A stretch of DNA of 64,000 bases from Podarcis tiliguerta (taxonomy: Eukaryota): the NCBI GenBank assembly GCA_965153285.1, contig OZ229123.1; one strand, given 5' to 3'. The notes under the pieces were generated by a model. The model ran no database searches, had not been told where the DNA came from, and was given only the letters and a program-made list of their open reading frames with translations. Below, in pieces: positions 1 to 14,450 of the stretch (the stretch's first letter is position 1; every line of letters starts with the position of its first letter). Position numbers and translations under genes: made by a program.

Positions 1-100
1 TTACTTTAAAAGAGGGTGAGACAAATTCATGGAGGAAGGTAAAGCTACCACAATGTCTATGTTCTCCCCCCACAGCTGGAGGCAACTATGTTTTCAAATA

Positions 101-339
101 CAGTTGTACCTTAGTTCTCGAATGCCTTTATATTTGTACGAATGCCACAAACCCAAAAGTGAGTGTTCCGGTTTGCGAACATTTTTCGGAAGCCAAACGT
201 CCAACGCAGCTTCCACACCTGACGACTGAGTGCAGGAAGCTCCTGCAGCAAATCGGAAGCCACGTCTTGGTTTTTGAATGGTTCCAGGAGTCAAACGGAC
301 TCCTGGGACGGATTAAGTTTGACAACCAAGGTACCAGTT
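101..339. mobile_element. Tc1/mariner-pogo type non-autonomous element (MITE)
   Basis: ta|CAGTTGTACCT ... AAGGTACCA termini; related to 60533-60998. Confidence 0.7.
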
Positions 340-441
340 TCTGGAAACAAGAGGGGAGAGGTCTCTTGTGGTCAGATCCTCTTTGAGGGTTTGCCATTGA
401 GGCATCTGCTCTGCCACTGTGAGAAGGGGATACTAGACTAC

Positions 442-2212
442 TAGAGCATGTTTATTTTTTCAACTTTCACATTCCAAAAATGAGGGGTGCTAAAAAGTTA
501 TAACATCACCTGGGAATTCAAAAGCTATTTTGGTTAAATTAATATAATTTAGTTTTGCATAGTAAACAACTACAGTACATAAAATATTGACCTTTTAAAT
601 AAATTTCCAATAATTTTAGACTTGTCCTATAAGAGTGAAAAATATATATGTGAAATTGCATAAAAATCGAAACGTCAAAACTTGACAAGCTTTTTGATAT
701 CCTCAATTGCAAGTGTAAGATTTTTCTTTGCTCTGAATTTGACTGCCCTACAGATTCTGGTTGCAAAAAAGAAGCTCATGTTCACTGTAAATGCCCTATG
801 GAGATGAAGATCCCTAGGAAGGAACTTGCTTTCATTAAAGGTCAGAGAGAGAATACTGGTTTGATTGGGCCACATCAGACTGTCTTGCCAGATCTGCCTG
901 AGCATAACAGACAAGCCACAAAGCAGAAGCGGCAATAAGATGAGAGAAGAAGACTTGCTGAATATAAGCAGTGAAGTAGGTAGGTTGCTTGAATACCATG
1001 AAATGAAATAATTTTCTCTGCTAGTGAAAATGAAGGTGCCCAAGATGGAAATGGTGGAAGTTATGAGTTGACATTAAGAAAAACAAGTACGACTTCCACT
1101 TCAAATAAAAAGTCAGAGTACAACACATTAGAAATACATAATGTTGCTATGTAGAACATCGGATAGGGTGTTGGCCTTTGTGCCACAGCTGCCCTCACCA
1201 CTGCCACCTTTCTGGATGCTGGCTTGATCACTGAAGACAAAGAGACTTGATCACAGTAAAGTCAAGAGGGCCAAGAAAAAGTTATGAAATCCCTGGATCA
1301 GGAATCTGATTCCCTTTGTCAGAAGGATGAAATTGACAGCATCTTCTTCGACGGCCAGGAAGATACAACTAAAGTTACGCTCAAATCAGACAATTCAGAT
1401 CAGCGGTTCCCAAACATCATCTCAGAACAGAATTAATATGTGTGCAGTGAGCCAGGTGGAAGATATCTCTACCACTTCACACTGGGAAAAGGCTGGAGTT
1501 TTTGCTAATAATTTTGTAGATTTCCTTAAGAAGAGCAGCATTGATAAGAGCCTGAAAGCCACTGAAGGTGATTCTACAAATCTTAACACTGGCTCGGAGG
1601 GTAGTACCATGCATTGGGTAGAGATCAAGCTTGGTTGTAAGCTGATCAGGTTGGTTTGTGCCCTCCACACCAATGAGTTACCCCGTGACAGTTGATCCAG
1701 CACTCAATGGAAAGACCTTGTCTAACAGCAAGTGGACAGGTAACACTAACAAGATGTTAAGACACTGCTACAGAACTTGATGTTGTTTCTTCATTAACCA
1801 AACTCACAACCGGAGAGCCTCTTCACTGACTGACAATGTCATAATGGATCTGTCTACTGATCAAGCGTTCAAGTATTGGATCACACAGACCATAAGGACA
1901 GGAAAACTTCCCATGGATCTGGTCCTTCTTGAAACTGATCCAGTAAGCCACTAAAGGCAAAGCCCCCAAGAACTTAAGACTGATAGTGGAATACATTGTT
2001 TGCATGTACTACCCCCTGCTGGTTCAACTTGAAGGTAAAACAGCCTTGTGTGGAAGGCCTACACCAAATCTTGTTTCAGCTGCAACAAGTTAGGCTGCAA
2101 AAGAAGGCTGTAGTGGATGCTGTTTTGCCAACCACTCAACATTCAGCTTGGTATGCATTCAGCGAAATGATAATCCAGACACTCTTGTGCTCAAATGACA
2201 ATGAGGAGAGGA
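442..2212 (+). mobile_element. Decayed DNA transposon with atypical hAT-like (hATm-type) transposase remnants
   Basis: Fragments in order, broken by stops and frameshifts: KLFDILNCKC...CKCPMEMKIPRKELAFIKGQR; IFFDGQEDTT; SEPGGRYL; GDSTNLNTG...LVCALHTNELP (DxxxxNTG...CxxH); DLSTDQ; PCWFNLK; AWYAFSE. Left end TAGAGCATG... interrupts a CR1-tail-like repeat; no right end seen. Confidence 0.8.
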
Positions 2213-2268
2213 GATCGAACCTGCAACCTTGGTGTTATCAGCACCACACCCCAACCAGCTGAGCTATC
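2213..2268 (-). mobile_element. tRNA-derived SINE head (tRNA-Ile-like)
   Basis: Reverse complement GATAGCTCAGCTGGT...GATAAC...GGTTCGATC with A and B boxes; similar head at 22671-22740 (+). Confidence 0.65.
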
Positions 2269-4429
2269 TTTCCATGGGTGTAACTAACTCAGGGCAATCA
2301 GCTTTGAACCCTGCTCCAATGCCACACTCACAAGGAATTGATACAGGGAGACTCCTCCCTGCACCACCCCCATCCTGGAGCACGGACAGAGTGACCGGCA
2401 TTACTTAAGTACACAGACAAAATGGAATTTGAAGATTTTGTCACTGTATTGATTGAGTTTATGGCTTCCCTGGCAAGAATCCATCCTGAATTTTAGTCTG
2501 GCTCAACACCCCAGGAGGCTTACAACTGCAAAACAAGAGGAACCACTATGATATAAATATAAAAGATTATTAAAAAGAAGCCATCTCCCATGAAAAGCAC
2601 CACCACACCCCGGGTGAAAACGGCTCCCACCCTAGGGACCTCTGCTGAAGGACAGACAGATGGCTTTTGTAAGCATGAAATCAGGCATAATAGTATAGCC
2701 ATGGGCTCACTCAAGCAGGTAGAATAGCAAGCCATAATGTAGGTCAGCTGAGGAGATTTAAGGCGGCGGGTGCAGAGGGATTTTCAGAACCACCAGGCAA
2801 CCTAGATATCCCCCTTCTTGTTATTTTGCTGGAAAATCCTCAGGCAGCTCTGAAAAATCCCACCCGGCCCAATTGTGGCACCCGCTGCTTAGCCACAGGG
2901 GCGGGCAGCGGCTCAAGCTGGAAGGAGACGGCAAAAGGCACCAGGGAGCTTCCCCTCCTCAATACACAGTAAGTGCTTGTCACCATCCCACATTTCTCAG
3001 TGAGGAAAGAGGACTGATGGGCAGAAAAAAGCCTTGTGCTGCCACACAGCCACAAACAAGAGGGGGAAGGTAGCACTGCTCATGCAGAAAAATGCTGAGC
3101 AGTCAGAAGAGGCCGGCTGCAAGGAACAGATCTGGTAACACTCAAAGGAGAACAAGGAAATCACAACGGGGTGCATTCACACAGGCAGTTTAACCTTAAG
3201 AACCCAACAGAAAAACTGCCTCTGTCTACCCCAACAAGCCGGAAAGGCTGTCTAGTCAAGAGATGCAAATGTTGATGGAAATCACACTGGCTCCTTGGCA
3301 ATTAATTGGAACTCGGGAATAAGCACAGGCCTCGCCAAGCAGTGTCTGCCAAAAAGTGGGAATGAGCAAAGGAGAGCAGGACTAGGCCCCATTCCTAAAC
3401 ATGTAACATGATCAAGTCCCCTTCAGACCCTTGTACACCCCCCCCCCCTTTCTGCTTTGTCAGCAAGGTCGCCGGATGAAGTTAGCTTGCATTCTGCACA
3501 TAACTCTTGCTCCACACAATGTATCTCAGGTAGTTATGGGTTTGTGTTTTTTATTTAGCTTTAAGCAGAAAGAATAACCACTAGCGTTAACTAAAGCAAT
3601 CCAAGAGATTTTGTATAAATTGCATGGAAAGCAGGAAATAGTGAAAGACCCTAGATATCAATATCAAGTTTTTAGGGAGTCTAAGCAAACATGAATCTGG
3701 AATCCACCGCTACCACAAGTAGTTGCATGTTTATTGCACATACCTGAAGTTGTACATTTGCCGTCTCTATTAAAATAGCACCAATTCCTCTTTGTTTTTG
3801 CACTGCCTTAAAAACCATAAATACTGTGTACGGTGTGAAAGCATAAAAAGCATTTTAACTCTCAACATATCCAACCCAAGAAGGAGGGAAAGATCTACAG
3901 GCACAACTTAACTAAACCAGCCCCATCTAAGTCAGAGCAGCAGTTGCCCCCCTGCAAACTGCTCGGCGGAGCAGCAATTAGGTGTGGGTGGTCAGGAGTC
4001 AGCATTTTCTGTCTCTCCACAGAGGAAATACTTCAGCTTATGCCACCTCTTTTGCCAGTCTCATATTCACTCACTGGCAGGGCAGAGACAGGGTCTGAGG
4101 CAGCTTAGGATCCTGACTAAGTCCTGACCCTCCCCATGATGACCCTCGAATCCTGCCCATTTCCAAGCTAATCTGGCATAAAGTCCCAAACGCTTGTGCC
4201 TCCTCAAAGAGACTGTCAGGATCTCAAGCACCTACACCTCTGTCTACCACATTCACTCAGGCAAGGGAGCTGCTGTCACAAGCTGAGCCTTCTTCTCATC
4301 TTTGATGTTACTGCAATATTATTTATATCCCGCATTTTCTCCCACTTTGGGATTCAAGGCCGCTTGCAACGTTTAAAAACAATGTTACAAAACAGAAGCA
4401 ATAAAAAAAAAATCCAGTTAAAAACAGTA

Positions 4430-4694
4430 CAGTGGTACCTCGGGTTAAGTACTTAATTCGTTCCGGAGGTCTGTTCTTAACGTGAAACTGTTCTTAACCT
4501 GAAGCACCACTTTAGCTAATGGGGCCTCCTCCTCCTCCTCCTCCTGCTGCTGCTGCTGCTGCTGCACCACCGGAGCACAATTTCTTTCTCTTCCTGAAGC
4601 AAAGTTCTTAATCTGAAGCACTATTGCTGGGTTAGCGGAGTCTGTAACCTGAAGCGTCTGTAACATGAAGCGTATGTAACCTGAGGTACCACTG
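4430..4694. mobile_element. Tc1/mariner-type MITE, CAGTGGTACCTC family
   Basis: TIR CAGTGGTACCTC/GAGGTACCACTG, TA on the left flank, internal TAACCTGAAG repeats and a CCT/CTG microsatellite. Confidence 0.85.
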
Positions 4695-7600
4695 TGATTA
4701 AAATACATAAGAACACAAGAGTTGCAGAGGTGGGAAGCAACAGCCCTGACAACTCTGTGGCAGTCCCTTTCCCTCTCCAACTCTGAGGAAGAGTATGGGG
4801 AGGCTGCTGTATTCTCAGAATACCCGGAGAGCATGCCATGTAAAACCAGCAGCACACCACTGCCCCAGAGGGGGCATTCTCGGCTGACGCTTGGCCAAGA
4901 TACCCAAGCTCCTTGATCAAGTGATGGCAAAACAGTAAACCCCTCTGCCTCCCTGCTTTAGCCCAGGAAAACAGGATGAGGTACACTGGCAGCGGCACGA
5001 CAAAGGTGCCCAAACAGCAAAGGGAACAACGACAGGGAACAACAAGGAGAGCCTCAAACTGTTAAACCACTGCAGGATCCCATATGAAGGCACTGTCAGT
5101 CTCATATTATTCTGCTACAAGCCCCAAGACCAGCCCTACCATTAGGCAGAGTAGGCTGGTAGGTGCAGGCCTCCTGCTCTCAAGTGGGGTGCAGGCATGG
5201 CCAGTTCCCCTTGGGAAGCAGAATTTTTGGGGTCAACCCTGACAAGCTACACACTTCCACTGCTACCTGCCTAAAGAATGCAAAATAAACTTTACATCCT
5301 ACCATAGAATATTTGCAGGAGTTTACTGAGAACCCCTGAGCCCCGGGGTGGAACTGCAGTTTTCCACTATTAATCCAGGAACTCTTACCCTGTGCACTGT
5401 TTACAGACCGTTCAAGACAGGAAACTATTAGAGAAAGTTGCTTTCTATTTTTTTTAAAAAGGTACTTTAAAACAATAAATTACTTGCTTCGCTTGCAGTT
5501 CCCAATCTCTGCATTAACCAGTATGTTTACTGAAACATCTAAACAATAGTTTGCTAACCTGTTGGTAAGCAAAAACAATCCCATCAATCACAGAATTTGC
5601 CAACTGTTAAGCACAGGAACATGCCTGGACAATGTATACAGTTAATCCTATGAAAGCAATAAAAAGTGTACATAAAACAAAGTATGACCCAAATCAGAAT
5701 CAGATTTGCCTCCTCTCTCAGCACTCGAGGAGACAAAAATTGATGCAGGGTTTATTTATGATCGGGGGTTTATTTATGATAATGAGCCCTTTAAGTTTCA
5801 TATTTGCCTCTCCATTGGATGTGTGGTTTAAAATCCACAAGGACCTCATCCTGCATTCTGTGATCCAAATCCAGGAGGGCCACTTCTTGTCAAGCACTTA
5901 AGCTGACACTTGCAGTGGCTGTCAGGGTCTTTGGTATCCGTTTGCTCCAATCCACAGATCCACAGATCCCCATGCAGCTAGACACAGGGATCAAACATTT
6001 CTGAACTCTCTATTAAACAAGATCATGAAGGGCATTTTTAGAAAGGGGTTCAATTTCAAAGGGTCTAAAAACAGGTGATGGGGTTTATTTCTTTATTTGA
6101 TTCCGTTTCACAGATAGAATGATAGAACTTGCACTGGGGGAGGGAAATCTGTATGTAGAACTTTTTTAAAAACATAAGCCACCTGCAGCCTATGGAGGAA
6201 GACCATTCAAGAGGAAACCGATGTGCTTATTACACAGAGCTACAGGAATCTCCCTCATTCTTGCATACAAAGAGGCACATACGTAGCTGCTACCGAAAAA
6301 TGCAGGGCAGGAATTGGAGTCTTCTCTGTATCCAACTGAAAAGACCAAGAAAATGTTTAGGTAGGCAGAATACAGCTGACTGAAATAGCTGACAAAGACA
6401 GGGAGGTTAAAGCAATCTTGTCTTGCAAAAAGGAGCCTTTTGAAACAGACTTTGACAATGACAATACAGGAAACAAAATTCTTATTCATTCAACAGCCCT
6501 ACTCACTTATGAGAGGGAAGCCCATTTTACTCCTGACAACCTTGCAAAGCTACCTGGCTACAGAAAAACCAAGTGCACCCTCTTGGCTTGGCCAACTTCA
6601 ACAAAGCCAGAGGAGCAGAACCAGAGTAACAATTCTATATTATGCGTGGGGAACCTTTGACCCTCCAGGTGTTGCCATCAGCTCCAACAAGCATGGACAA
6701 TAGCATGCGATGATGGGAGCTGTAGTTCAGCAACATCTGGAGGGCCTGACATTCCAAACACCTGATAGCCATTTACGGTAGATGGGAAAAGGAAGTAACA
6801 GTAATAAGAATTACTGTAAGCATTTTCCAGGACCATGTACTTAAGTTTTGCATTGTGCATTCAGGGACTCCATTCATTACAAAATGATAACATTCAATTA
6901 AATAATGAGCCGTATTCCCAAGTCTGCTTTCTACATAGTGTTCTAGTTAGCACATCACATTAAACCATATTTAAAACTAGCTATGGATTAGTGTGAGCAA
7001 GCGGTTGCTGGTACATGGTTATTCAACCACAGGCACTTCGCTCCTTCCCTGCTCCTGCCACACTGAGAAGGAAACCAGCTCAACAAGAGAGCCTTAATAG
7101 CACCTGAAAGACTAACAAATTTAATATGGCAGAGGCTTTCTAGTCCATGACATAATAAATTAGATAGACTTTACATTACTACAAGACTCTCATTTTGCTC
7201 CAGCATATGACATACAGAAGCTACCCTCCTAACAGAATAAGCTATCCAGATTTCCATACTGGGTAGAGGCACCCTGGAAATGGAAAGAGAAGCCATTCTT
7301 TGGCAGCATTCTCCTGAACAGTTTAAAAGGGGCTTCCACTCCTTTGCAAGGAGGACAGCACATCCTCTCCTCCCTCCTTCTCTCAAGAGGAACAGCACAA
7401 AATGAAAAGGACATGTAGGAGACACACAGGTCTACGGTAACAAGGCCCAGTACTAAAGCCATGCTTCTAGCTCTGTTTCCTGATGTACGTGCAGTTGTGT
7501 AACATGTGAAGAAATATAATGTTGGTATGTGCTAAAGCCCGCCAGGCTCACCATGTAATCACTGCCGCCATTTCCTCCTCCTCCTGGTGGGGAACACTAG

Positions 7601-11897: not shown

Positions 11898-12979
11898 TGC
11901 AGAGAGGGAATCAGGGCTACTATCTATGAAATACCAGAAACACGTGTGTTTAACTAAGAATCATACCAGTGCTAAATACCTGAACATTCTGCCATGAAGA
12001 AGATGGAACAAACTCATTCTTTGTTGCTCCATAGAGCAGGACTAGAACTGATAGGTAGAAACTGCAAGGAAGCAAATTTTGACTGAGCATTAAAAGAAAT
12101 ATTGCAACACAAAAGGCTACTAGGGAGCAGCACAGGTAGTGCTGGTGGGTTCTCCCACACTTGAGGCATTTAAGCAGTGGATGGCCACCCATATGCCAGG
12201 AATGGTGAAGATTCCTGAACTAAGCCGGGTGGGAGTCCAACTCTTATGATCCTAGGAAGTTATGATCCTCTATTCGGTATGACAGAATTCTCTGTGCAAC
12301 TCCAAACTTTATACCCTCCTATGGAAGTTTCATAGGTAACAAGTAACATATTTAAATGATGTAAACGGAACTGTTTCTCTCATCTCACTCAATAAGAATT
12401 GCAGATAACACCTGAAGGAGATTCCAAACAGGTATTTTCTGCTATTCTTCATTCACTGCCGGTCTTAATATGAGTCAAGACTCCTCAGAGCTCACCCCTG
12501 GAACAGAAGGAAAACTACAGTTATCACAAATGGCACTCTGCATCTGCTCAGAGGTTTCCTTTCAGTCAGCCTATAAGTAGAAAGAAAAAAATCATCTATG
12601 CAAGTACTGATTGATAGAGGCACCTTAAGTTGCACAAGGGGATGACTTGAACTAGGAATTAAACAAAGGTATCACTTTTCCACCGCCAGATCTCAGCACC
12701 TGTACCTGTGAATCTGGAATATACCACCTCTGGAAGCCACCACAAATCATTAACACACTGCCATCAGTGCCAGTGAGGGAGCTTCCTAAGAACAACCAAT
12801 GCACCTCCCTGCCCCAAAGAGCTTACAGTCTAAATGTCAGCTCTAACCCAAGGGAATGACACCTTTGCCAAGAGCACCCAGGTCACAGCGCAGCATGCCT
12901 TCCAAGCAAGCAGGGCATCTGGTGATTATTTTTAGGTGCTGCAGGTCTCGATGCACTGGCCCTGCTGCTGCTCTTTGTG

Positions 12980-14450
12980 CTTCTGAAAAGGGGACCCTGG
13001 CCAGATTAGATGCTTCCCCTGCGGAGGGGCTGCTAGGAGCCGGCAGAGGAGCGGGAGAGCCCCTCACCTTGAACTCCCGGCTGTGCTGCGGCGTATACTC
13101 GAGCGTCCAGAGGGCCCGCACTAGGTGCGACAGCTGCTCCGTCACCTCGCCCTTGCAGTTGTCCGGGGCGGGCTCCGGCGGGCGGGCGGGGGCCACGGCT
13201 GGCACGTCCCTCTCGCCGCCGCGGCCCTCCTCTTCCTCCTCCTCCTCCTCTCCGCCGGCGCCTCTGCCTCCGTCCCCGGCTTCTGCGGCGTTGGCGGCGC
13301 GGTACTGCTCGAGGGCGAGGTACTCGGCGAAGAGCTCGGTGTTGCTGAGGCACTGCAGGATGGCGTTCATGAAGCACGTGTTGCCGTGGTTGCGCAGCCC
13401 CGCCACGCCGGGCACGGCCGGCAACAGCAACGACCCCGCCGAGGAGCCCGGCGGCGGCGGCGGTGGCGGTGGCGGCGACGAGATCAGCTCCTGGGTGGCG
13501 GGAGGCTGCGGAGGCGGCGGCGGCGACGGGGGAGGCGGCGGCTCGGGCTCCGGGCTGGGCTGGAAGCAGCGGCCCAGGCTGCTGCCGCCGGGGGGGTGTC
13601 CGTGGCGGGCGGTGGTGGCGGCGGGCCCGTGCTCGGTGCCCAGGTGGGAGAGCGTCGAGAGCGTCTTCAGCACGCGGCTCATGAATCCGCCCAGCGACCT
13701 GGAGGAGGAGGAGCCCGAGCCCCCAGTGCCGGACCCGCCGCCGCCCACCCGGCCCCGGAAGAGCAGCCGCTTGCTGAAGGAGCGCTTCTCCTTGGCCGCC
13801 GCCGCCACCACCACCGGCGAAGCGGCGGCGGGCAGCACCGGGGCCGCCACCGCCGCAGCGCCACTCGCCCGGCCCGACATGGCGCCCTCTCCCCGCGGGC
13901 CTACCACCGCCTCATCCCCGCCGCCGCAGCCCAGCCTCCGCGCCTGGGAGCTTCACCGGCGGCACAGCCGTGCAGGAGCCGGAGCTGCTCCTCCTCCTCC
14001 TCCTCCTCCTCCTCTTGCTGCTGCTGCTGCTCAGGCTGAGGCGGCGGCGGGCGGGGCGGAGCCCGCGCTGCGAGACGGGCACGCAGGAAGCCGGCGCCGC
14101 CATGCTGGTTGCGGGCAACCGCGGGAACCAGCCGGCCTACCCTTCTCGCGGCCGCCGCCATCTTTGGTCCTGGCAAAGGCCTCTTTCCCCCTCCTCCGTC
14201 TCCCTCAGTGAAGAAGAGAGGCAAATAGCGTAAAGGGGCGGCGGCGGCTTCTTCGGCCACTCTTGCCAGCCGGGCAGCTTTCAGTGCGGCCCAGTTCCCC
14301 TCGGCGCTGGCTCGCGAAGGCCCAGGCCCGAGCCTGTTTCCTCTTGCTCGGCTCCTCTAGACTTCCCGCCAAAACCTCCGTCGCCTCAGGGAGCTCACAG
14401 GGAAGCCAGGAGTTGCCTTTTCTCCACAGAGACGGAATTATCGTGGCCAT
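12980..14450 (-). promoter_or_regulatory. CpG island covering USP31 promoter, 5'UTR and exon 1
   Basis: Very GC- and CpG-rich; GGGGCGG boxes; YY1-like AAGATGGCGGC on the - strand around 14154-14164. Confidence 0.85.
13068..13880 (-). CDS. USP31: Ubiquitin carboxyl-terminal hydrolase 31, coding exon 1 (271 codons); rest of gene lies left of the window
   Basis: ATG at 13880 in gcgccATG context. KEKRSFSKRL...GFMSRVLKTLSTLSHL, the Cys box GLRNHGNTCFMNAILQCLSNTELFAEYLAL and GEVTEQLSHLVRALWTLEYTPQHSREFK match USP31. Phase-0 donor AAG|GTGAGG at 13067. Located in a CpG island next to SCNN1G, as in other tetrapods. Confidence 0.95.

What the first reader, a model, noticed from the sequence alone, without database searches (positions are those of the whole stretch)
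442..2212. Fossil atypical hAT-like (hATm-type) transposase of an arthropod-like family in USP31 intron 1; horizontal-transfer candidate
Seen: threading through frameshifts from about 678 gives a colinear transposase. It has an N-terminal LFDILNCKC...CKC...KIP..EL.FI..QR Cys cluster, a GVGLCATAALTTA helix, a first acidic motif FFDGQEDT (~1344), SEPGGRYL, a second motif GDSTNLNTG followed by CALHTNELP (CxxH), then DLSTDQ, PCWFNLK and AWYAFSE. Knowledge: the acidic motif plus CxxH is typical of hAT-related transposases. I recall this particular series (FDGRKD, DGTxVNTG, LHxNELPLRH, DLSTDQ) mainly from insect, spider and other invertebrate elements rather than amniote Charlie/Tip100 hATs. Inference: an old invasion of the lizard lineage, possibly by horizontal transfer. 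It appears younger than the CR1-tail-like repeat it interrupts at 441. The hATm label is from memory and uncertain.
Basis: partly seen in the sequence, partly recalled or inferred. Interest (0 to 1): 0.7.

Follow-up and report, generated by a model that had tools for sequence, protein, structure and literature searches.

The report
Horizontally acquired fossil hATm lizard transposon
A broken jumping gene in an intron of what is likely a lizard gene belongs to a dead family whose consensus is about 90% identical to an intact invertebrate (likely earthworm) element and to a hagfish protein, so it likely crossed between distant animals tens of millions of years ago, a real but common kind of event.

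Summary
Confirmed: window 442-2214 is the 5' part of a dead, multi-copy cut-and-paste DNA transposon, lying antisense in intron 1 of a USP31-like gene. The family (about 2.95 kb, plus 420-460 bp MITEs) has TAGGG(C/T)(G/A)TGT termini, 9-bp target duplications and a D-D-CxxH-W-E transposase whose best fold match is Hermes. That fits the hATm group of hAT elements. Copies are about 10% from their consensus, nearly star-like and near-neutral: one burst, roughly 30-65 My ago depending on the rate. The consensus ORF is 90.6% identical in DNA (dS 0.28, dN 0.056) to an intact element of an invertebrate, probably an earthworm. It is 91% identical in protein to a hagfish sequence, but only 72-75% to frog relatives. 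Vertical descent would saturate dS, so horizontal transfer is strongly supported; donor and direction are unresolved. 'Arthropod-like' is not borne out: no close named relative is an insect or spider. I found no paper describing this family, but could not search Repbase or Dfam. A published screen already counts anonymous earthworm-lacertid transfers. Real, well supported, modest novelty.

The parts
442..2214 (+). 5'-anchored, 3'-deleted copy of an autonomous hATm-type DNA transposon (family consensus about 2.95 kb)
   Evidence: Three collinear blocks to the family consensus at 83%, 85% and 91%; contigs of 4 invertebrate-labelled runs lie on 441-2214 and not on the flanks
433..441 (.). Likely left copy of the 9-bp target-site duplication (CTAGACTAC); the right copy is lost
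   Evidence: Fits the family target bias, T at position 2 and A at position 8; sequence
442..451 (+). 5' terminal inverted repeat, decayed (TAGAGCATGT; family TAGGG[CT][GA]TGT)
   Evidence: Aligned 5' ends of 34 loci and 3' ends of 40 loci
442..668 (+). 5' non-coding end of the element, followed by a deletion of about 440 bp that removes the start codon and about the first 110 codons
   Evidence: Consensus 1-223 joins consensus 662
672..1957 (+). Broken transposase, P0041 residues about 120-565: Cys/His cluster, catalytic D357 (FFDG, 1344) and D437 (GDST, 1567), CxxH (1657); 9 in-frame stops and several frameshifts
   Evidence: D437, C466 and H469 are invariant in a 91-sequence alignment
1952..2214 (+). 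Second transposase block, to P0041 residue about 672, after a 54-59 bp deletion that removes the conserved R567-W568; catalytic E754, the 3' end and the 3' TIR are absent
   Evidence: no 3' piece within the 104 kb searched
2213..2268 (-). Head of a tRNA-type SINE, joined to the transposon through a 2-bp overlap; likely the far end of one deletion that took the transposon's 3' third
   Evidence: 82-89% to other SINE copies; the deletion reading is inference
55..441 (+). Older LINE-tail-like repeat (approximate start), itself interrupted at about 101-336 by a Tc1/mariner-type MITE after a TA
   Evidence: 69-75% to other copies; class labels are recalled, not from a call
13068..13880 (-). Exon 1 of the USP31-like host gene; the element lies in its roughly 18.5 kb intron 1
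   Evidence: UCH, E 8e-10; the USP31 name is recalled

Best explanation
It is a dead copy of a hATm-group cut-and-paste DNA transposon that likely entered the lizard germ line by horizontal transfer roughly 30-65 million years ago, likely amplified in a single burst together with short MITE derivatives, and has since decayed without sign of function. Shown: TIRs, 9-bp target duplications, multi-copy decay, the D-D-CxxH-W-E residues in intact relatives, and 90.6% DNA identity of the consensus to an invertebrate element. Inferred from Hermes and Kat1 biochemistry: the transposase bound the TIRs, cut with its DDE triad, formed hairpins on the flanking DNA with help from CxxH, and joined the ends into a target cut with a 9-bp stagger; MITEs were moved in trans. 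Inferred: the source was a pool of related elements circulating among soil and aquatic animals (earthworm-like invertebrate, hagfish, unknown hosts). The direct donor is not identified.
For: Family: 590, 564 and 765 first-look candidates for the body, the 3' end and the MITE (40 scored each); at least 74 distinct transposase-bearing loci. TSD: in 13 of 31 two-ended loci with clean termini, flanks match 54% at 9 bp against 31% when shuffled (0 of 2000), and 21% at 8 bp; two further loci show perfect 9/9. hATm termini and 8-9 bp TSD per PMC6004678 (passages and one supplement). Fold: best match Hermes, Z 13.7, rmsd 5.5, 345 aligned; next ISCth4, Z 9.9 (Foldseek agrees). Decay: 37 copies of at least 300 bp, non-CpG K2P mean 0.101 (0.070-0.127), pooled dN/dS 0.82, window copy dS 0.081 and dN 0.093. 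Shared derived changes 0.55% against about 0.44% expected, so nearly star-like. CpG sites shared with the invertebrate element are mutated in 260 of 347 copy-sites, GpC controls in 396 of 1693, so the copies aged in this genome. Transfer: consensus against L061 gives 90.6% nt, 88.7% aa, dS 0.28, dN 0.056; a consensus built without the reference gives 90.5% ungapped. Non-coding ends are 84-87% identical ungapped to metagenome elements. Expected dS under vertical descent is about 4.2 (1360 My total from PMC12400950 Dataset S5, times 3.1e-9 from PMC7070016). Hagfish protein 91% over 351 aa, frog 72-75%. AU test rejects a lizard+frog clade, p 5e-5. Invertebrate host: 20 of 24 listed runs, from 10 studies, hold at least 88% of L061's words; 8 are labelled invertebrate or invertebrate-gut metagenome. 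Its flanks carry high-copy repeats. A member of the same 90% cluster sits in a MAG named for an earthworm nephridial symbiont.
Against: Presence and absence across squamates, birds and turtles could not be mapped; no eukaryote genomes other than G000 are held. A RepeatModeler 'hAT-hATm' family of 77 copies is listed for the corn snake, and for canary and turkey, in PMC7070016's supplement, so the group may be wider in sauropsids than one invasion. The host of L061 is inferred from coded run labels and one MAG name, not from a named genome. The hagfish record is a 352-aa protein with no DNA, so it has no dS. The tree leaves lizard, hagfish, L061 and five unnamed elements in an unresolved cluster, and lizard+hagfish is not rejected (p 0.23). 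The tetrapod group was named after the quick tree had been seen, which weakens that p-value. Pooled dN/dS 0.82 is slightly under 1. No Pfam family matched 5 intact or named relatives, including the hAT dimerisation domain PF05699 that PMC6004678 reports for hATm-6. 18 of 31 two-ended loci were dropped for decayed termini before the TSD count; 10 and 11 bp also scored above null (35%; p 0.03 and 0.005). The date depends on an assumed rate, and 'lizard' itself is inferred.
Confidence: 0.9

Rival explanations
1. The family is an old, vertically inherited squamate or amniote hAT family, and similarity to invertebrate and hagfish elements reflects strong constraint on the transposase.
For: dN/dS between the consensus and L061 is 0.20, so there is constraint. 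hATm labels occur in a snake and two birds in a published automatic annotation. Frogs and fishes carry relatives.
Against: Constraint does not hold synonymous sites (dS 0.28 against about 4 expected) or non-coding ends (84-87%). Copies are only about 10% from consensus, too young for an amniote-wide insertion. Frog and fish relatives fall in separate clades (AU p 5e-5 and 6e-6).
Confidence: 0.04
2. Direct transfer from an earthworm prey or its parasite into the lizard lineage, rather than independent arrivals from a wider unsampled pool.
For: The closest full-length relative is L061 (88.5% aa over 794), tied to earthworms. It is intact and differs by only a few letters between runs. PMC12400950 counts 3 transfers between Aporrectodea and Zootoca and 1 with Amynthas.
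Against: The hagfish protein is as close or closer (91% against 89% over the C-terminal 351 aa); dS 0.28 means the modern invertebrate element is not the immediate source; the node is unresolved. The same dataset counts 0 transfers between Eisenia fetida and Zootoca.
Confidence: 0.3
3. The similarity is contamination: invertebrate DNA in the lizard assembly, or vertebrate DNA in the invertebrate samples.
For: One relative is evidently mis-binned in a bacterial MAG, so contamination does occur in these databases.
Against: The copies sit on chromosome-scale contigs and inside a host intron, show CpG decay, and carry this genome's own SINE and MITE insertions. Invertebrate-run contigs cover only the element and none of the window's flanks, and have their own flanks across several studies.
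Confidence: 0.01
4. The window copy has been exapted by USP31, for example as an intronic regulatory element.
For: It lies in intron 1 of a conserved gene, about 11 kb from exon 1, and is among the less diverged copies (0.091 against a mean of 0.101).
Against: 9 stops, frameshifts, loss of the start codon, W568 and E754; dN about equal to dS; divergence lies within the family range. No expression data were examined.
Confidence: 0.03

Closest known systems
hATm family of hAT transposons (Repbase; defined as a fourth hAT family in PMC6004678)
   Same: TAGGG...CCCTA termini, 9-bp TSD, MITE derivatives; named protein relatives come from Hydra and Helobdella, and the paper's terminal alignment lists _HM and _HR elements (read by me as those genera).
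   Different: Positions 6-7 of the terminus are C/T and G/A (likely ancestral CG) rather than fixed TG; no PF05699 profile hit; vertebrate host, whereas the suffixes in the paper's figure appear to be invertebrates.
Hermes transposase (Musca domestica; PDB 8edg, 4d1q)
   Same: Best structural match (Z 13.7): RNase H-like core with a helical insertion domain; DDE, CxxH and conserved Trp.
   Different: 9-11% sequence identity; about 795 aa with an N-terminal Cys/His cluster that matches no Pfam family; 9-bp rather than 8-bp TSD (Hermes value recalled).
Horizontally transferred DNA transposons of tetrapods: Chapaev Merrow/Conan (PMC4079192); SPIN and OC1 hATs (recalled)
   Same: Fossil families in lizards with 80-99% identity to elements of jawless fish or invertebrates, with MITE derivatives.
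   Different: Different superfamily or hAT group; the partners here are a hagfish and a probable annelid rather than lamprey, insects or mammals.
Uncharacterised proteins UniRef100_UPI00358F4A34 (Myxine glutinosa), KAM5191736.1 (Mantella aurantiaca), PGH38266.1 (MAG 'Ca. Nephrothrix sp. EaCA')
   Same: 91%, 75% and 89% identical to the lizard consensus protein over the aligned parts.
   Different: Annotated as uncharacterised or hypothetical; none is labelled a transposase.

Membership tests
hATm group | 5'-TAGGGTG ... CACCCTA-3' termini (PMC6004678) | tested here: met
   TAGGG at both ends with T/C then G/A (34 5' ends, 40 3' ends); several copies and relatives L065 and L066 read TAGGGTG exactly; the paper's own list has variants
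hATm group | 8- or 9-bp target-site duplication | tested here: met
   9 bp: 54% against 31% null in 13 of 31 two-ended loci; two perfect 9/9 cases outside that set
hATm group | Transposase falls in the hATm clade, apart from Ac, Buster and Tip | tested here: inconclusive
   No labelled Repbase hATm, Ac, Buster or Tip proteins were available; trees place it with unlabelled Hydra and Helobdella proteins
hAT superfamily | DDE triad with insertion domain, CxxH after the second D, conserved Trp | tested here: met
   D437, C466, H469, W568 and E754 invariant in 91 sequences; D357 in FFDG; features as described in PMC4763223
hAT superfamily | Fold closest to Hermes | tested here: met
   Model pLDDT 89; Hermes Z 13.7 against ISCth4 9.9 and P element 7.8; Foldseek ranks Hermes first but P element close
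hAT superfamily | C-terminal dimerisation domain PF05699 and N-terminal BED finger | tested here: inconclusive
   No Pfam hit at E up to 1 in 5 proteins, but the structural alignment spans model 310-788 to Hermes 133-609; the N-terminal Cys/His cluster was not folded or searched alone
hAT superfamily | Hairpin formation on flanking DNA during excision | not testable with these tools
   Needs biochemistry
Horizontal transposon transfer | TE synonymous divergence far below that of host orthologs | tested here: met
   dS 0.28 against about 4.2 expected from published time and rate; host-gene dS was not computed directly
Horizontal transposon transfer | TE tree discordant with host tree | tested here: met
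   Tetrapod and gnathostome clades rejected; the groups were named after a first tree had been seen
Horizontal transposon transfer | Patchy distribution among the host's relatives | not testable with these tools
   No other eukaryote genomes are held; protein searches show no named amniote hit among the rows listed, but fossils are not annotated as proteins
P element / Mutator (IS256-like) | THAP domain and 8-bp TSD (P), or long TIRs with 9-bp TSD and MULE domain (Mutator); features recalled | tested here: not met
   TIRs about 10 bp, no Pfam THAP or MULE hit; both score below Hermes. The 9-bp TSD and CxxH are shared with Mutator

The most novel reading that the evidence does not exclude
An undescribed hATm family that jumped among an earthworm-like invertebrate, hagfish and lacertid lizards, with a separate related invasion of frogs. 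An intact, probably recently mobile copy survives in the invertebrate, and long fossil copies are about six-fold enriched on what is likely the lizard Z chromosome. This would be a first worked case of hATm invading an amniote and would supply a natural intact hATm transposase shown by its fossils to have worked in a vertebrate germ line.
Probability: 0.5. Interest if true: 0.5.

Novelty: new member of a known kind. Interest (0 to 1): 0.36.

Why it matters
It turns a motif-based guess into a measured case of transposon transfer across about 680 My of host divergence (PMC12400950 lists 1360 My summed over both branches). It extends the little-studied hATm group into amniote genomes with defined ends, target site and age. 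The intact invertebrate relative is a ready candidate for the first biochemical or structural study of a hATm transposase that I know of, and it has no Pfam or PDB sequence match. It changes no paradigm: hAT transfers into squamates are frequent in published screens, and the window copy looks like neutral debris.

Tried and rejected
Pfam on 7 window fragments gave only a chance RelB hit under cut-off, and nothing on 5 intact or named relatives. The PDB sequence search gave 3 weak hits, E 0.04 or worse. There was no relative in IMG/VR viral contigs (5 pattern matches, 0 confirmed) or GTDB genomes (24, 0 confirmed), so no vector lead. No 3' part of the element was found in the window plus 40 kb upstream. 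No intact copy was found among 123 matches to the hagfish protein in G000 (115 of 160 candidates scored). The first two consensus attempts lost the C-terminal part (the second through a failed string search) and were replaced. No clear TSD was seen around metagenome elements L065, L066 and L067. Summed contig depth over L061's ORF was about 4-10 times that of its flanks, but the tool warns this is no copy number, so it is a hint only. The 95-row careful tree did not finish and the quick tree was used; the 24-row tree left out the other rows to finish in time. The HMMER library search (1485 hits, no names) showed only that the family is large. Three look-ups of earlier findings returned nothing. 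Literature searches listed no paper describing this family; two were swamped by irrelevant hits and showed only 25 of 3715 and 30 of 50 papers. The hATm accession tables of PMC6004678 (.doc), Repbase and Dfam could not be read. The supplement of PMC7070016 searched may be cut short.

Full report
OBSERVATION. The similarity is far above chance: an intact relative, P0041, aligns to window 442-2214 with a best segment of 333 bits, against at most 23.9 bits in 50 shuffles. The host gene is a USP-family deubiquitinase on the minus strand (Pfam UCH). Exon 1 ends at about 13067 and exon 2 lies about 5.4 kb before the window start, so the element is antisense in an intron 1 of about 18.5 kb. The name USP31 and the lizard host are not given by any tool. 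They rest on recall of the human protein and of squamate repeats, and on Ctr/SLC31A matches mapping to a 50 Mb contig that fits the lacertid Z.

ANATOMY OF THE FAMILY. Searches of the own genome gave 590 first-look candidates for the window stretch, 564 for the 3' end and 765 for a short derivative; 40 were scored each time. Merging searches gives at least 74 distinct transposase-bearing loci. Aligned ends read TAGGG[CT][GA]TGT on both sides (34 and 40 ends). Of 31 loci with both ends, 13 had clean termini and 18 were dropped. In those 13 the flanks match best at 9 bp (54% against 31% shuffled, 0 of 2000), not at 8 bp (21%); 10 and 11 bp gave 35%. Two loci outside that set have perfect 9-bp duplications. 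Targets favour T at position 2 and A at position 8. A script consensus is about 2.95 kb and encodes one ORF of about 795 codons. A 420-460 bp MITE family of the same age derives from the ends.

THE WINDOW COPY. It keeps the 5' end (442-668), loses about 440 bp including the start codon, keeps 672-1957, loses 54-59 bp including R567-W568, keeps 1952-2214, and then meets a reversed SINE head. The catalytic E, the 3' TIR and the right target copy are absent from 104 kb searched. One deletion that also took the rest of the flanking repeat is the simplest reading (inference). It has 9 in-frame stops, and dS 0.081 against dN 0.093: neutral debris.

CLASSIFICATION. PMC6004678 (passages, a supplement search and supplementary file 6) defines hATm by TAGGGTG...CACCCTA termini, 8-9 bp TSDs and a separate clade. 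The first two are met. The clade could not be tested against labelled sequences. In 91 aligned relatives D437, C466, H469, W568 and E754 are invariant, the residues described for hAT transposases in PMC4763223 (passages). The AlphaFold model of P0041 (pLDDT 89) matches Hermes best: Z 13.7, then ISCth4 9.9 and P element 7.8 (Foldseek). Against this, no Pfam family, PF05699 included, matched five relatives, and PDB has no sequence match.

RELATIVES. A search with the longest open frame among the first 60 loci fetched (L002, 186 aa), then with P0041, found a large family. Identities to the lizard consensus protein are: hagfish Myxine glutinosa 91% over 351 aa; a fragment in a MAG named for an earthworm symbiont 89% over 161 aa; P0041 88.5% over 794 aa; unnamed metagenome elements 83-86%; the frog Mantella 72-75%; Hydra 46-63%; Helobdella 59%; crustaceans 46-63%; fishes 45-53%. 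No insect or spider is among the named rows shown (120 of 245 and 120 of 307 listed), although the broader family is commonest in arthropods. P0041 is encoded by metagenome contig L061. 20 of 24 listed runs, from 10 studies, hold at least 88% of its words; 8 are labelled invertebrate or invertebrate-gut metagenome, 8 are coded organisms and 4 are unlabelled. Four of these runs cover the element and L061's own flanks. Four such runs, three of them the same, laid on the window at 80% likeness cover 441-2214 and nothing of the lizard flanks. Ca. Nephrothrix is an earthworm nephridial symbiont (PMC4445045, passages), so the host is likely an earthworm; this is indirect.

HORIZONTAL TRANSFER. The consensus ORF against L061 gives 90.6% nt, 88.7% aa, dS 0.28 and dN 0.056 over 795 codons. 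A consensus built without the reference gives 90.5% ungapped identity. Non-coding ends are 84-87% identical ungapped to metagenome elements. With 1360 My of summed divergence (PMC12400950 Dataset S5) and 3.1e-9 per site per year (PMC7070016, passages and one part of the text), vertical descent predicts dS of about 4.2. Host-gene dS was not computed directly. In a 24-row tree the consensus sits on a very short branch in an unresolved cluster with hagfish, L061 and five unnamed elements. A lizard+frog clade is rejected (p 5e-5) and lizard+hagfish is not (p 0.23); the groups were chosen after the quick tree. Purifying selection between hosts (0.20) with near-neutral decay within the host (pooled 0.82) is what a transfer followed by extinction predicts. 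37 copies are 0.070-0.127 from the consensus (mean 0.101, CpG excluded), share few derived changes, and show CpG decay in 260 of 347 copy-sites against 396 of 1693 at GpC. That gives 29-33 My at 3.1e-9, and up to 61-67 My at an assumed 1.5e-9. Donor and direction are not resolved, and no viral or bacterial vector was found.

MECHANISM. Shown: TIRs, 9-bp duplications, target bias, catalytic residues and fold. Inferred from Hermes and Kat1: DDE cleavage at the TIRs with hairpins on the flanks, strand transfer into a 9-bp staggered target, and MITE mobilisation in trans. The N-terminal Cys/His cluster is likely a zinc-binding DNA-recognition module (untested). The family then died: no intact copy was found among 123 protein matches.

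WHAT IS KNOWN. Ten literature searches were run; none listed a description of this family, with the limits given under Tried and rejected. Repbase and Dfam could not be searched. The kind of event is well known. Chapaev families moved among lizards, lampreys and insects (PMC4079192, passages); a mariner is shared by lacertids and bats (PMC10162687, passages); BovB moved repeatedly in squamates (PMC6050309, passages). hAT-like elements make up 30% of 6043 transfers in PMC12400950 (passages). Its supplements count 159-416 class-2 transfers per squamate species, and 3, 1 and 0 between Zootoca and Aporrectodea, Amynthas and Eisenia. This family may be among those anonymous counts. In the searched supplements of PMC7070016 no lacertid or hagfish name occurs, but 'hAT-hATm' is listed for six vertebrates, the corn snake among them.

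VERDICT. Observation confirmed. The hATm label and horizontal transfer are supported (about 0.9); the arthropod pointer is not. It is a new member of a known kind, interest 0.36. The most novel reading is an undescribed earthworm-hagfish-lizard hATm family with an intact survivor and Z-linked enrichment of fossils: probability about 0.5, interest about 0.5 if true.

Noticed in passing
G000 contig C25 (50.0 Mb): 15 of 74 transposase-bearing loci lie on C25 (2.5 expected by length, binomial p about 3e-8), but only 1 of 40 MITE loci. Both Ctr/SLC31A matches also map to C25. The lacertid Z is homologous to GGA4p and GGA17/HSA9 (PMC6534595, passages), and SLC31A on HSA9 is recalled, so C25 is likely the Z. 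The loci are the best-scoring subset, not a full count.
   Followed up: partly
L074-L103 and others (G000, many contigs): A 420-460 bp MITE family made of the element's two ends plus a short 5' internal piece; 90% ungapped identity to the autonomous ends, so the same age.
   Followed up: yes
L020:1111-1157 and window about 101-336: The same Tc1/mariner-type MITE sits in the window's left flank and inside a hATm copy at L020, so that MITE is younger than the hATm burst (class label recalled).
   Followed up: partly
window 4429-4695: A second MITE-like element with 24-bp inverted ends (88% complementary) and internal 16-17 bp repeats.
   Followed up: no
window 12856-14211 (+): A 451-aa open frame antisense to USP exon 1 in the GC-rich island; probably a by-product of base composition.
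   Followed up: no
G000:C25:19398867 and G000:C235:7034: Identical matches on C25 and on the 8.9 kb contig C235 suggest an assembly duplicate.
   Followed up: no
L013 and L026 (C25, about 135 kb apart): These two copies share 22 derived changes in 507 sites against 2.5 expected: a local duplication or gene conversion.
   Followed up: no
P0036 (PGH38266.1): A eukaryotic hATm transposase fragment is deposited in a bacterial MAG of an earthworm symbiont, likely host DNA mis-binned.
   Followed up: partly
P0245, P0267 with P0244, P0339, P0307: A separate clade joins fish (Aldrovandia, Chaenocephalus) with crab and sea-louse proteins on short branches, a further transfer candidate in the same group.
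   Followed up: no
L067 (metagenome contig): A rearranged relative with both ends, terminus TAGGGCGTGT as inferred for the lizard ancestor, 85-90% identical to the consensus; host unknown.
   Followed up: partly
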